64,000 bases of DNA, taken from the IMG/VR virus record IMGVR_UViG_3300044984_002785. The stretch is one strand, 5' to 3'. The DNA is from a virus. Taxonomy: Duplodnaviria > Heunggongvirae > Uroviricota > Caudoviricetes > Demerecviridae. Below the pieces are notes generated by a model. That model was given only the letters and a program-made list of their open reading frames with translations, did not search any database and was not told the DNA's origin. Shown here piece after piece: positions 22,500-23,029 of this stretch (position 1 is the stretch's first letter; the number at the start of each line of letters is the position of its first letter). Position numbers and translations under genes: made by a program.

Positions 22500-22872
22500 A
22501 GTTTTGTCTAGCAAGGAAAGTAAACGGAGGATGGGCAAGTTGGGGTGCATCCTGACTAGATACCCCACCGGCTAGACGATTTATATGGCTTCAAAGTGTT
22601 CATGGACGCACACAGCACTGTCACTGCTGAAGAAGGGGATCGTTACCCCTTGAAGCCGCCAAGACCTACCTTAGGTCCGCTAGACGTAAACGGTTATGAC
22701 AAGGGTTGTTCCTGTCGGGCGTCCGAGCAATTGAACTGCCATTCGTTAATTGGCGCTGGATAAAGTAACCAGCATATTTAATTCTAGCGAAAACGCGCTA
22801 TAGTGTGTAAGTACAGCCCTTCTCCTGTACTGAAGCTCACTCGGGGATGGCGCACCGGGCGCTAGAATTAAA
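22500..22872 (+). ncRNA. highly structured ORF-free region (candidate ncRNA / 5' leader)
   Basis: Nested helices: AGGATG/CATCCT, GGGGT/ACCCC, GGCTTCAA/TTGAAGCC enclosing GGGG-atcgtta-CCCC, direct repeat GGCTAGACG x2, and 16-nt IR 22774-22789/22860-22875 overlapping ATG 22874. Confidence 0.3.
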
Positions 22873-22873
22873 T

Positions 22874-23029
22874 ATGAAAAAGTTTTGGAAACTATGGGCA
22901 AAAGCCCTAGGCGAGAAAGTTGGCGACGATAATACCGCTGACCGAGTAGCTTTATTACGAACAGCAATTGTTATGTGCTATATCATAACTAACTTATTTA
23001 TTATTGCTGGTGTTATAAGACACTGGTAA
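22874..23029 (+). CDS. small hydrophobic protein (51 aa)
   Basis: MKKFWKLWAKALGEKVG...VMCYIITNLFIIAGVIRHW; start codon inside the 3' arm of the 16-nt inverted repeat. Confidence 0.35.
   Translation: MKKFWKLWAKALGEKVGDDNTADRVALLRTAIVMCYIITNLFIIAGVIRHW

What the first reader, a model, noticed from the sequence alone, without database searches (positions are those of the whole stretch)
22500..23029. 372-nt highly structured non-coding region with inverted repeat occluding the start of a small membrane-protein gene
Between tRNA-Leu(TAA) and tRNA-Asn lies an ORF-free stretch with nested helices (AGGATG/CATCCT, GGGGT/ACCCC, GGCTTCAA/TTGAAGCC enclosing GGGG-atcgtta-CCCC) and a duplicated GGCTAGACG motif. 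A 16-nt perfect inverted repeat (22774-22789 and 22860-22875) encloses a GTACAG/CTGTAC hairpin; its 3' arm contains the ATG (22874) of a 51-aa hydrophobic protein. This looks like a cis-regulatory RNA (start-codon sequestration) or an independent ncRNA, possibly another Ro60 partner.
Basis: seen in the sequence. Interest (0 to 1): 0.5.

Follow-up and report, generated by a model that had tools for sequence, protein, structure and literature searches.

The report
Conserved small RNA among phage tRNAs
The flagged stretch is a missed tRNA-Asp gene plus three conserved structured RNA modules in a T5-like phage's tRNA cluster; the inverted repeat closes a ~104-nt RNA that recurs between tRNA genes in related phages, so it looks like a stand-alone small RNA of unknown function whose overlap with the small gene's start codon is a local side effect.

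Summary
The inverted repeat is real: 17 bp perfect, 22773-22789/22860-22876, with the ATG at 22874 in its 3' arm. The region is not one non-coding leader. The helices GGCTTCAA/TTGAAGCC and GGGG/CCCC are the acceptor and T arms of a missed, non-canonical tRNA-Asp(GUC) at 22587-22661. The rest is three separable modules: S (22500-22586), A (22662-22772) and B (22773-22876).

I found 27 distinct copies in uncultured phage contigs and none in 185,579 bacterial or archaeal genomes. It matches no Rfam family. Compensatory changes occur in 25 of 31 pairs.

In 19 of 24 copies examined for context the 3' end abuts a tRNA or tRNA-like gene. Only 4 abut the small ORF, and that ORF also occurs without the module.

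Neither module A nor B tracks the Ro60 gene; a different hairpin (21956-22047) does.

The closest analogue is phage T5's tRNA-cluster "stable RNAs of unknown function", especially RNAIII, which has the same design but no detectable homology.

Best reading: a stand-alone small RNA released by tRNA processing. Start-codon occlusion is predicted here but is lineage-specific.

The parts
22500..22586 (+). Module S: an optional ~87-nt irregular hairpin between tRNA-Leu(UAA) and tRNA-Asp. The closing stem is GUCUAGC (22506-22512) with GCUAGAC (22571-22577).
   Evidence: MFE -26 kcal/mol, z = -2.15, 6 of 200 shuffles as good. Conserved in L082, L084, L087, L088 and L089. Absent in L081, L091, L003, L085, L090 and L100, where Leu and Asp are 4-8 nt apart. 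RNAalifold keeps the closing stem plus CGG/CCG and GG/CC, with only one compensatory pair.
It is non-canonical at tertiary positions: A8, U14, C15, C21, and T-loop AUCGUUA (A54/U58 instead of T54/A58).
   Evidence: Called by ARAGORN. No Rfam tRNA hit even at E<=10. It follows tRNA-Leu(UAA) in nearly all relatives. The cloverleaf is 100% paired in 14 homologues, with 12 of 21 pairs compensatory; the odd positions are invariant.
22662..22772 (+). Module A: a conserved structured trailer that starts right after the CCA of tRNA-Asp.
- Hairpin 22663-22668/22672-22677.
- Long-form extra hairpin GACAaGG/CCUGUC, 22698-22716.
- Two adjacent 4-5 bp hairpins with 9-nt loops: H3 at 22738-22754 and H4 at 22755-22773.
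- It contains GGUCCG and CGUCCG.
   Evidence: Present after tRNA-Asp in 17 distinct relatives, in a short (~91 nt) and a long (~113 nt) form. H3 and H4 show compensatory changes. The extra hairpin covaries between the window and L101 (read from the sequences). The single-sequence fold is not better than shuffles, z = 0.05.
22773..22876 (+). Module B: a 104-nt three-way-junction RNA motif.
- J1/2: GAAAACGCGCUAU.
- P2a: 22802-22804 with 22835-22837.
- Internal loop: GUGUA (22805-22809) opposite GAA (22832-22834).
- P2: 22810-22816 with 22825-22831, with a CU-rich loop.
- P3: 22840-22844 with 22855-22859, with loop GGAUGGCGCA.
- Invariant strand GCUAUAGUGUGUA at 22797-22809.
   Evidence: 27 distinct copies.
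- MAFFT alignment A1: 94.7% of cells paired, against 33-43% when the partners are slid; 19 pairs with double changes.
- Model-fitted alignment A7: 96.8% paired, 25 of 31 pairs compensatory. By helix: P1 14 of 16, P2 6 of 7, P3 4 of 5, P2a 1 of 3 and 100% paired.
- z = -6.3.
- No Rfam hit. One copy per locus.
22874..23029 (+). 51-aa small membrane-protein gene (phrog_1679; labelled 'Rnf-Nqr' in some cyanophage records). The A and U of its ATG are the last two bases of the P1 3' arm.
   Evidence: phrog_1679 E 6e-22. Found in 215 cyanomyovirus records and 360 IMG/VR stretches. It follows module B in only 4 lineages (window, L081, L003, L002), and follows tRNA-Asp directly in L100 and L083. The alternative upstream ATG at 22847 is absent in L002.
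22139..22167 (+). Sigma-70-like promoter candidate (TTGACT-17-TATAAT with TG; 11 of 12 matches) upstream of tRNA-Tyr. It is the likely start of the transcript that carries the whole region.
   Evidence: No terminator-like site on the + strand between here and 24300. This is a consensus match only.

Best explanation
The window comes from an uncultured, distantly T5-like phage. Its tRNA gene array is interleaved with conserved, hairpin-closed RNA modules. The flagged stretch holds tRNA-Asp and three such modules: S, A and B.

SHOWN
It is an independent RNA gene of about 104 nt.
- It folds into a three-way junction: a 16-17 bp terminal helix P1, an arm P2a/P2 with an invariant GUGUA/GAA internal loop and usually a pyrimidine-rich tip, and a short GC-rich hairpin P3.
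- Its invariant single strands point to tertiary structure or a specific binding surface.
- The structure, its independence from the ORF, and its exact abutment to tRNAs are all supported by comparison with relatives.

INFERRED
- Module B is co-transcribed with the tRNAs and is cut out by the tRNA-processing enzymes.
- In most copies the last base of P1 is the base before the next tRNA's 5' end, which is the RNase P site.
- Where a tRNA lies upstream, P1 begins in or right after its CCA. That leaves a blunt, exonuclease-resistant helix with the functional core exposed.
- It then acts in trans, on a protein or on a purine-rich RNA.
- Stability and trans action are inferred by analogy with phage T5 RNAIII, which has the same design and is annotated as a stable RNA.

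THE SMALL GENE
In this window and three close lineages, the small membrane-protein gene was joined directly to the 3' end of P1. Its AUG is therefore buried in a -21 kcal/mol helix. This probably lowers its translation, but it is a by-product and not the reason the RNA exists.
For: STRUCTURE UNDER SELECTION
- The same three helices come out of a MAFFT alignment and a model-fitted alignment. 94.7-96.8% of cells are paired, against 31-45% when partners are slid. 19-25 pairs carry double changes.
- A 13-nt strand stays invariant in 23 of 27 copies while P1 and P2 change sequence.

INDEPENDENCE FROM THE ORF
- 19 of 24 copies are abutted (-5 to +1 nt) at the 3' end by a tRNA or a tRNA-Asn-like gene (Asn, Asp, Met, Cys, Ala). 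4 are abutted by this ORF and 1 by another ORF.
- In L083, L112, L134 and L065 the module fills the gap between two tRNAs exactly. In L065 P1 includes the ACCA of tRNA-Glu and the first bases (GGUC) of tRNA-Asp.
- The ORF occurs without the module in L100 and L083.

RECURRING DESIGN
- The window has at least 8 long-stem-closed modules. Several begin with the upstream tRNA's ACCA and end with UGGU before the next tRNA. Most are conserved in relatives.

ANALOGUE
- The T5 record annotates RNAIII (106 nt), RNAI (107 nt) and RNAIV (103 nt) as 'stable RNA with unknown functions' inside its tRNA cluster.
- RNAIII has a 17-bp terminal helix that starts in the CCA of RNAI and ends in the first bases of tRNA-His. 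It also has a long hairpin followed by a short one.
- The phage is T5-like: its PolA is 49% identical to that of Vibrio phage pVp-1, and it has SbcCD, NAD ligase and a 24-tRNA array.

TRANSCRIPTION
- There is a promoter-like site at 22139-22167 and no + strand terminator through 24300.
Against: - There is no expression or end-mapping data for this uncultured phage. 'Stable' and 'trans-acting' rest on analogy with T5.
- No homology to the T5 RNAs is detectable (best 14.6 bits, E 0.07, a bare hairpin).
- No target or partner was identified. A search for the complement of the invariant strand in the window found nothing beyond chance.
- The CU-rich P2 loop is not universal. L155, L146 and L220 have short U-rich or GUAAA tips.
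- In this window no tRNA abuts either end of module B. Module A lies upstream and the ORF downstream, so release by RNase P does not apply here.
- In 4 lineages the ORF has stayed intact behind the helix, so some functional coupling cannot be excluded.
Confidence: 0.6

Rival explanations
1. Processing or insulating spacer. The long P1 helices are there to separate neighbouring tRNAs in the polycistronic precursor, either as RNase III-type cleavage sites or as folding insulators that define RNase P and 3'-trimming sites. On this view the excised piece has no function of its own.
For: - Many inter-tRNA gaps in the window carry 17-24 bp AU-rich stems that run from the upstream ACCA to a UGGU before the next tRNA.
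- The slot after module A is filled in L082, L084, L087 and L088 by other long-stem hairpins with unrelated interiors.
- P1 length is held at 16-18 bp in all copies.
Against: - A plain spacer would not keep a 13-nt invariant single strand, an invariant GUGUA/GAA loop, and covarying P2a, P2 and P3 across copies whose P1 sequence has fully turned over.
- The analogous T5 RNAIII is annotated as a stable RNA whose ends lie within the terminal-helix region, i.e. not destroyed by cleavage there.
- Some relatives do without any spacer at the same junctions, with 4-8 nt between tRNAs.
Confidence: 0.2
2. Cis-acting translational control of the small membrane-protein gene. P1 sequesters the AUG, and translation is switched on by melting, processing or a trans factor.
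For: - The AUG lies in the P1 3' arm. Predicted P(unpaired) is 0.0-0.07 for A and U, against 0.65-0.96 in L100 where the ORF follows tRNA-Asp directly. The P1 duplex is -21.2 kcal/mol.
- The same fusion is kept in 4 lineages with the ORF intact at 82-94% amino-acid identity.
- No Shine-Dalgarno sequence lies upstream.
Against: - Only 4 of 24 copies precede this ORF. The four share the identical junction, which is consistent with one ancestral event.
- The module is conserved with the same core when flanked only by tRNAs.
- The ORF family is widespread without it: 215 cyanophage records, plus L100 and L083.
- No alternative or anti-sequestering pairing was seen.
Confidence: 0.08
3. Ro60 partner (a Y-RNA-like RNA). 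Module B, or A plus B, binds the phage Ro60/TROVE protein encoded 0.9 kb upstream.
For: - It is on the same strand and within 4 kb of a Ro60 orthologue (TROVE plus vWA; phrog_850 E 5e-41). That is the criterion used by Chen et al. 2014 (PMC4201824).
- A long helix is formed by the 5' and 3' ends, together with a pyrimidine-rich loop.
- Module A contains GGUCCG, which resembles the vertebrate GGUCCGA Ro60 contact.
Against: - There is no Y_RNA or YrlA hit even at E<=10.
- The GNCGAA(N)G motif is absent or not conserved in module B.
- GGUCCG is GGUUCG in L003 and L082.
- Modules A and B are present where Ro60 is missing from its slot between tRNA-Met and tRNA-Trp, in L107 and L114.
- L083 has Ro60 and B but no A. 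L092-L099 have Ro60 and neither module.
- The hairpin at 21956-22047 is the element conserved next to Ro60 in nearly all Ro60-bearing relatives.
Confidence: 0.06
4. DNA-level element. On this view it is a small mobile cassette with terminal inverted repeats, or a promoter or operator palindrome, and not an RNA structure.
For: - The element is present or absent and sits at different positions in the array: between Leu and Asp, Glu and Asp, Ala and Asp, after module A, and before Met, Cys or Ala.
- The arms are 16 bp, like terminal inverted repeats.
- TATAGT lies within the invariant strand, with TTTAAT 16 nt upstream (read).
Against: - There is one copy per locus, and no second copy in the 64-kb window.
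- No target-site duplication is seen at the L090 against L107 junctions.
- The internal hairpins P2, P2a and P3 covary, which a DNA repeat does not explain.
- Spacing between the putative -35 and -10 changes by 2 nt between the two subtypes.
- The promoter scan finds no + strand site there.
Confidence: 0.05

Closest known systems
Phage T5 stable RNAs of the tRNA gene cluster (RNAIII, RNAI, RNAIV; GenBank NC_005859 features T5s01, T5s02, T5s05)
   Same: - They are embedded in a T5-type tRNA array on the tRNA strand and are 103-107 nt long.
- RNAIII has a 17-bp AU-rich terminal helix that begins in the CCA of the upstream RNA and ends in the first bases of the downstream tRNA.
- It then has a 5' single-stranded stretch, a long hairpin, and a short GC-containing hairpin next to the 3' strand of the terminal helix.
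- Their function is unknown.
   Different: - No detectable sequence or covariance-model similarity. RNAIII scores 9.5 bits, E 1.7.
- The invariant GCUAUAGUGUGUA / GAA / GCG core is absent from the T5 RNAs.
- The T5 RNAs are annotated in the GenBank record as stable RNAs, while module B has no expression data.
Phage T4 RNA species I and II (rnaC, rnaD) in the T4 tRNA gene region
   Same: They are small RNAs of unknown function encoded among phage tRNA genes (Fig. 1 legend of PMC2330249). My recollection is that they are matured with the tRNAs.
   Different: The phage lineage is different.
Bacterial and phage Y RNAs (YrlA, YrlB, Yrn1), partners of Ro60
   Same: They are encoded near, and on the same strand as, a Ro60 orthologue. 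They are about 100 nt with a terminal helix formed by the two ends.
   Different: Module B has no tRNA-like T and D arms, no conserved GNCGAA(N)G or GGUCCGA motif, no Rfam match, and no co-occurrence with Ro60.
Start-codon or SD-sequestering mRNA leaders (translational operators, RNA thermometers)
   Same: In this window the AUG is inside a stable helix and is predicted to be inaccessible.
   Different: The structure is not linked to the gene across relatives. It has a complex conserved core unrelated to the ORF, and no alternative conformer is evident.

Membership tests
tRNA (for 22587-22661) | Cloverleaf with four helices maintained by compensatory change | tested here: met
   100% of cells paired in 14 homologues. 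12 of 21 pairs have double changes (acceptor 5 of 7, anticodon stem 5 of 5, T stem 2 of 5). Slid controls give 33-54%.
tRNA (for 22587-22661) | 7-nt anticodon loop with U33 and a purine at 37; G18 G19; 3' CCA | tested here: met
   The loop is CUGUCAC (GUC anticodon). GG is in the D loop. GCCG-CCA is encoded. All are invariant.
tRNA (for 22587-22661) | Canonical tertiary positions (U8-A14, T54-A58, T-loop UUCRA) and an Rfam RF00005 score of at least 29 bits | tested here: not met
   The positions are A8, U14, A54 and U58, with T-loop AUCGUUA, conserved in the whole group. There is no RF00005 hit at gathering threshold or at E<=10. Only ARAGORN calls it. I file it as an atypical but real tRNA because of the covariation and the conserved position in the array.
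Y RNA / YrlA (for modules A and B) | Encoded within ~4 kb of a Ro60 orthologue on the same strand | tested here: met
   Ro60/TROVE ORF at 20581-21891 on the + strand. The criterion is from PMC4201824.
Y RNA / YrlA (for modules A and B) | Ro60-binding motif GNCGAA(N)G or GGUCCGA near the 5' end, conserved | tested here: not met
   Module B has AGCGAA or AGUGAA, which is not conserved. Module A has GGUCCG, but this is GGUUCG in L003 and L082.
Y RNA / YrlA (for modules A and B) | tRNA-like T and D arms (YrlA); match to the Rfam models | tested here: not met
   No Y_RNA or YrlA hit at E<=10 in 19400-23250. The module A hairpins have 9-nt loops with no UUCGA or GG signature.
Y RNA / YrlA (for modules A and B) | Co-occurrence with Ro60 across genomes | tested here: not met
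   A and B occur without Ro60 in the Met-Trp slot in L107 and L114. Ro60 occurs without A or B in L092-L099. The contigs are partial, so a Ro60 gene elsewhere cannot be excluded.
T5-type tRNA-cluster stable RNA (RNAIII-like) | Lies inside a phage tRNA array on the tRNA strand; ~100-110 nt; terminal helix spans from the upstream CCA to the downstream tRNA 5' end | tested here: met
   for module B. for T5 RNAIII.
T5-type tRNA-cluster stable RNA (RNAIII-like) | Accumulates as a discrete stable RNA in infected cells | not testable with these tools
   The phage is uncultured and no transcript data are available.
T5-type tRNA-cluster stable RNA (RNAIII-like) | Sequence or structure homology to the T5 RNAs | tested here: not met
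   Model R1 run with filters off on T5 27000-42000: best hit 14.6 bits (E 0.07) is a bare hairpin. RNAIII scores 9.5 bits and RNAIV 10 bits. The kinship is therefore by design, not demonstrated descent.
Start-codon-sequestering cis-regulator | Pairing covers the initiation region | tested here: met
   P(unpaired) is 0.0-0.07 for the A and U of the AUG. Mean over -15..+6 is 0.16-0.21.
Start-codon-sequestering cis-regulator | The structure is evolutionarily linked to the regulated gene | tested here: not met
   4 of 24 copies precede the ORF and 19 of 24 precede a tRNA or tRNA-like gene. The ORF occurs without the module.
Any Rfam 15 family (for modules S, A and B) | Covariance-model match | tested here: not met
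   Nothing at gathering threshold. At E<=10 there are only chance-level hits (MDR-NUDIX 14.2 bits, E 8.4).
Intrinsic terminator | GC-rich hairpin followed by a U tract | tested here: not met
   No + strand terminator-like site in 21800-24300. P1 is followed by GAAAAAG.
MITE-like mobile element | Multiple copies per genome with target-site duplications | tested here: not met
   A single copy in the window and in each locus. No duplication at occupied against empty sites.

The most novel reading that the evidence does not exclude
Module B is a functional RNA with a biochemical activity of its own. Candidates are a self-processing ribozyme, a ligand- or protein-binding aptamer, or a decoy that neutralises a host tRNA-targeting defence. 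The basis is the invariant single strands, the GUGUA/GAA loop and a possible pseudoknot between J1/2 and the P3 loop. If so, it would give the first function for the decades-old class of 'stable RNAs of unknown function' in phage tRNA clusters. The evidence does not exclude this: the conserved unpaired core is typical of tertiary-structured RNAs, and known ribozyme and riboswitch families simply do not match.
Probability: 0.12. Interest if true: 0.8.

Novelty: new member of a known kind. Interest (0 to 1): 0.42.

Why it matters
Phage tRNA clusters are now known to matter in the arms race with host anticodon nucleases (for example T5 tRNA-Lys against PARIS, PMC11464382). The small stable RNAs interleaved with those tRNAs in T4 and T5 have had no assigned function since they were first described.

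This window supplies a well-defined new family of such RNAs. There are 27 divergent copies, a covariation-supported three-way junction, and an invariant core. That gives clear nucleotides to mutate and a clear processing prediction.

It also shows that hairpin-closed modules bridging the CCA of one tRNA to the 5' end of the next are a general design of T5-like arrays.

On the practical side, it corrects the annotation. A real but non-canonical tRNA-Asp, invisible to the Rfam tRNA model, sits in what looked like non-coding RNA, and the apparent riboregulator of the small gene is a secondary consequence of cassette shuffling.

Tried and rejected
- **Rfam.** Gathering threshold on the whole window, and E<=10 on 19400-23250. 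No family matched modules S, A or B or tRNA-Asp.
- **DNA similarity to 50,697 phage records.** Only the flanking tRNAs match, so no cultured relative carries these modules.
- **Exact-pattern scan of 185,579 bacterial and archaeal genomes.** There were 11 pattern matches, including two Pseudanabaena contigs. None is a real copy by the covariance model.
- **Model R1 on the T5 tRNA region, filters off.** Chance-level hits only.
- **Pseudoknot between J1/2 GCUAU (extended GCGCUAU) and the P3 loop AUKGC(GC).**
  - 87-89% of cells are paired, but there are essentially no compensatory changes.
  - A U-U mismatch is present in about half of the copies.
  - I left it as possible.
- **RNAalifold's 2-bp helix (G:C, U:G) at the base of P2.** L183 and L189 break it. 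I replaced it with the 3-bp register P2a, which is 100% paired.
- **Single-sequence MFE of module B.** It pairs GCGCUAUAGUG with CACU...AUGGCGC in place of P3 and P2a. I rejected this in favour of the covarying helices.
- **Trans target inside the window for the invariant strand.** Nothing beyond chance.
- **Anti-Shine-Dalgarno mimicry by the P2 loop.** CCUCCUU occurs in only a few copies. Three copies have short non-CU tips. In L112, L115 and L134 the CCUU can pair with AAGG. This remains speculation.
- **Promoter reading of TTTAAT-N16-TATAGT.** Not picked up by the scan, and the spacing is variable.
- **Module A as a tRNA-like or YrlA-like RNA.** I could not fit a cloverleaf and there is no model hit.
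- **Literature searches.** I found no description of these modules or of the structure and function of the T5 RNAs.
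Full report
**1. What is at the coordinates**

Reading 22200-23400 confirms the literal observation.
- ATATTTAATTCTAGCG (22774-22789) is the perfect reverse complement of 22860-22875. With C22773:G22876 the repeat is 17 nt.
- It encloses GTACAG...CTGTAC (22811-22816 and 22825-22830).
- The ATG at 22874 opens a 51-aa ORF that ends at 23029.

ARAGORN finds 24 tRNAs and a permuted tmRNA in the window. One of them is a tRNA-Asp(GUC) at 22587-22661, inside the supposedly non-coding stretch.

Rfam's tRNA model does not report this gene at the gathering score or at E<=10. 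That explains why it is easy to miss.

**2. The tRNA-Asp is real but atypical**

- Relatives fetched through the neighbouring Ro60 gene and the small ORF have a tRNA-Asp right after tRNA-Leu(UAA) in nearly every locus.
- In 14 distinct homologues every cloverleaf cell is a standard pair, and 12 of 21 pairs show changes on both sides. Slid controls give 33-54% paired.
- CCA is encoded.
- Positions that normally build the tRNA core are altered and invariant in this group: A8, U14, C15, C21, and T-loop AUCGUUA (A54/U58 in place of T54/A58).
- Other phages in the set (L112, L120, L110, L099) and T5 itself have canonical tRNA-Asp.

**3. The rest is modular**

blastn of 22500-22873 against the relatives splits the region.

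*Module S (22500-22586).*
- It is present in L082, L084, L087, L088 and L089.
- It is absent in L081, L091, L003, L085, L090 and L100, where Leu and Asp are 4-8 nt apart.
- Its closing stem and two inner short helices are conserved, but only one pair covaries.

*Module A (22662-22772).*
- It follows the CCA of tRNA-Asp in 17 distinct relatives, in a short and a long form.
- Its two 3' hairpins covary. Its 5' ~45 nt are conserved in sequence.

*The slot after module A.* It is filled by module B in some relatives, by unrelated long-stem hairpins in L082, L084, L087 and L088, and by nothing in L090.

**4. Module B is a conserved RNA structure**

I collected 27 distinct copies.
- An exact-pattern scan of IMG/VR with the invariant strand gave 20 stretches.
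- A covariance model (R1) confirmed copies there and in metagenomes.
- A second pattern brought four more divergent copies.
- None of the 11 pattern matches in 185,579 bacterial or archaeal genomes is a real copy.

Covariation is strong in both kinds of alignment.
- On a MAFFT alignment made before any model existed, RNAalifold predicts P1, P2 and P3. 94.7% of cells are paired against 33-43% when partners are slid. 19 pairs have double changes, and 0 of 500 shuffles reach the observed values.
- On the model-fitted alignment of 27 copies, which leans towards the model, 96.8% of cells are paired and 25 of 31 pairs are compensatory: P1 14 of 16, P2 6 of 7, P3 4 of 5.

The divergent L065, L183 and L189 copies corrected the base of the P2 arm. 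It is a 3-bp helix, P2a (22802-22804 with 22835-22837), that is 100% paired and shows A:U, U:G and U:A at its outer pair.

Between P2a and P2 lies an invariant asymmetric loop, GUGUA opposite GAA. I read this as a possible loop-E/bulged-G-type motif. That is inference only.

GCUAUAGUGUGUA is identical in 23 of 27 copies, although P1 and P2 have turned over completely.

A pseudoknot between J1/2 and the P3 loop is possible but unproven.

No Rfam family matches.

**5.

The context tally below covers the 24 copies examined.
- In 15 copies a tRNA called by ARAGORN starts within -5 to +1 nt of the module's 3' end (Asn, Asp, Met, Cys or Ala).
- In 4 more the next gene is a divergent tRNA-Asn-like sequence.
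- In 4 (window, L081, L003, L002) it is the small ORF, always with the same ...AAATATG junction.
- In 1 it is another ORF.
- In L083, L112, L134 and L065 the module exactly fills the gap between two tRNAs. In L065 P1 uses the ACCA of tRNA-Glu and the first bases of tRNA-Asp.
- The small ORF follows tRNA-Asp directly in L100 and, after 16 nt, in L083. Its family is otherwise a cyanomyovirus gene.

The structure was therefore not built for this gene.

The occlusion is nevertheless real as a prediction in this window.
- P1 is -21.2 kcal/mol.
- The A and U of the AUG are unpaired with probability 0.0-0.07.
- In L100 the corresponding values are 0.65-0.96.

**6. Ro60**

The ORF at 20581-21891 is a Ro60/TROVE-vWA protein.

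Chen et al. 2014 (PMC4201824) define bacterial and phage Y RNAs by three features: proximity to Ro60, a GNCGAA(N)G motif, and tRNA-like T and D arms. Module B has only the proximity and a terminal helix.

Modules A and B remain in L107 and L114, where tRNA-Met and tRNA-Trp are adjacent and the Ro60 cassette is absent. Ro60-bearing L092-L099 lack both modules.

The hairpin-closed element at 21956-22047, just downstream of Ro60, is conserved next to Ro60 in nearly every Ro60-bearing relative. If this phage has a Y RNA, that element is the candidate.

**7. A general design, and its known counterpart**

The array contains at least eight modules closed by 17-24 bp AU-rich stems. Several run from the ACCA of one tRNA to a UGGU just before the next. 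Examples are 15182-15301 between tRNA-Lys and tRNA-Ile, and 22279-22407 between tRNA-Tyr and tRNA-Leu. Most are conserved in relatives.

The replication genes identify a distant T5-like phage. Its PolA is 49% identical to that of Vibrio phage pVp-1, and it has SbcCD, NAD-dependent ligase and RNR.

The T5 GenBank record annotates RNAIII (106 nt), RNAI (107 nt), RNAIV (103 nt) and others as 'stable RNA with unknown functions' within its tRNA cluster. RNAIII shows the same construction.
- CCACAAUUGAAAAUUCG pairs with CGAGUUUUCAAUUGUGG (17 bp). The helix starts in the CCA of RNAI and ends in the first bases of tRNA-His.
- It encloses a long hairpin and a short GC-containing one.

The covariance model finds no homology. 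T4 likewise has RNA species I and II in its tRNA region (PMC2330249).

**8. Mechanism**

*Shown:* a conserved three-way-junction RNA, its independence from the ORF, and its nucleotide-exact abutment to tRNAs.

*Inferred:*
- The region is transcribed with the tRNAs. There is a promoter-like site at 22139-22167 and no + strand terminator through 24300.
- RNase P cleavage of the downstream tRNA creates the module's 3' end at the base of P1.
- 3' maturation of the upstream tRNA creates its 5' end.
- The blunt long helix stabilises the product, as for T5 RNAIII.
- The invariant core then acts in trans.

What it acts on is unknown. I consider a protein partner more likely than an antisense target, for two reasons. 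The conserved nucleotides sit in junction and internal-loop positions, and no complementary site was found.

In this window neither end of module B abuts a tRNA, so local processing may differ. The fused ORF is probably translated poorly from the folded precursor.

**9. Verdict**

The element is a new, well-supported family within a known but functionally unsolved kind, the stable RNAs of phage tRNA clusters. Interest is moderate. It would rise sharply if a biochemical activity or a defence-related role were found.

Noticed in passing
window 21956-22047: A 92-nt element closed by an 18-bp perfect stem lies immediately downstream of the Ro60 stop codon and before tRNA-Trp. It is conserved next to Ro60 in nearly all Ro60-bearing relatives, and is absent where the Ro60 cassette is absent. 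It is the best Y-RNA candidate in this phage, but it matches no Rfam Y RNA or YrlA model and I saw no GNCGAA motif.
   Followed up: partly
window 12475-12587, 12762-12871, 14497-14680, 15182-15301, 22279-22407, 25201-25313: Six further long-stem-closed modules (17-24 bp AU-rich stems, 90-185 nt) lie in or near the tRNA array. Several begin with the ACCA of the upstream tRNA and end with UGGU before the next tRNA or before the permuted tmRNA. All but 12475-12587 are conserved in relatives. Their interiors were not analysed for covariation.
   Followed up: partly
window 22587-22661 and homologues in L064-L157: The tRNA-Asp of this phage group has both reverse-Hoogsteen core pairs swapped (A8/U14 and A54/U58) plus C15 and C21. 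These positions are invariant while the stems covary. It may be a way to escape host tRNA-targeting nucleases or modification enzymes. Compare T5 tRNA-Lys against PARIS (PMC11464382).
   Followed up: partly
L164 (phage T5) 3395-3501, minus strand: T5 'RNA I' starts GGCUCAAAGUGUAACGG and ends GAGAGCCGCCA. This resembles the odd tRNA-Asp of this phage group (GGCUUCAAAGUGUUCAUGG...GAAGCCGCCA). It could be a derived tRNA-Asp-like RNA.
   Followed up: no
window 20581-21891; L107 and L114: The Ro60/TROVE-vWA gene, together with its downstream hairpin, behaves as an optional cassette between tRNA-Met and tRNA-Trp. In L107 and L114 the two tRNAs are 4-8 nt apart.
   Followed up: partly
window 23110-23239; also L082 and L091: The spacer between tRNA-Asn and tRNA-Gln contains a T-arm-like GGGGTTCGATTCCC and is conserved in relatives. 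It is possibly a degenerate or tRNA-like gene that ARAGORN does not call.
   Followed up: no
L091 7297-7375, L082 ~7366-7445, L110, L119, L155: Directly after module B, or after its replacement hairpin, these loci carry TCCGTAGAATCCGAGCTAGGCGCACGGACTTGACTGTTAATCAATG...GGTTCGAATCC...ACGGAGCCA. This is a tRNA-Asn(GUU)-like gene with an enlarged D arm, missed by ARAGORN.
   Followed up: no
window 22139-22167: A near-consensus sigma-70 promoter-like site (TTGACT-17-TATAAT with an extended -10 TG; 11 of 12 matches) lies between tRNA-Trp and tRNA-Tyr.
   Followed up: no
window 25262-25703: A phage-encoded permuted (two-piece) tmRNA with tag ANDQTYALAA matches Rfam tmRNA_permuted and beta_tmRNA. This hints at a betaproteobacterial host. 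Relatives carry variants of the tag.
   Followed up: no
window 23410-23877: An ORF with a PF04308 RNaseH-like domain (E 4e-17; phrog_11311) is embedded in the tRNA array, between tRNA-Arg and tRNA-Cys.
   Followed up: no
window 22190-22282 and 15305-15396: tRNA-Tyr (93 nt; Rfam scores it only as a weak tRNA-Sec-like hit) and tRNA-Ile(UAU) (92 nt) are unusually long. tRNA-Tyr and tRNA-Ser(GCU) also miss the Rfam tRNA gathering score.
   Followed up: no
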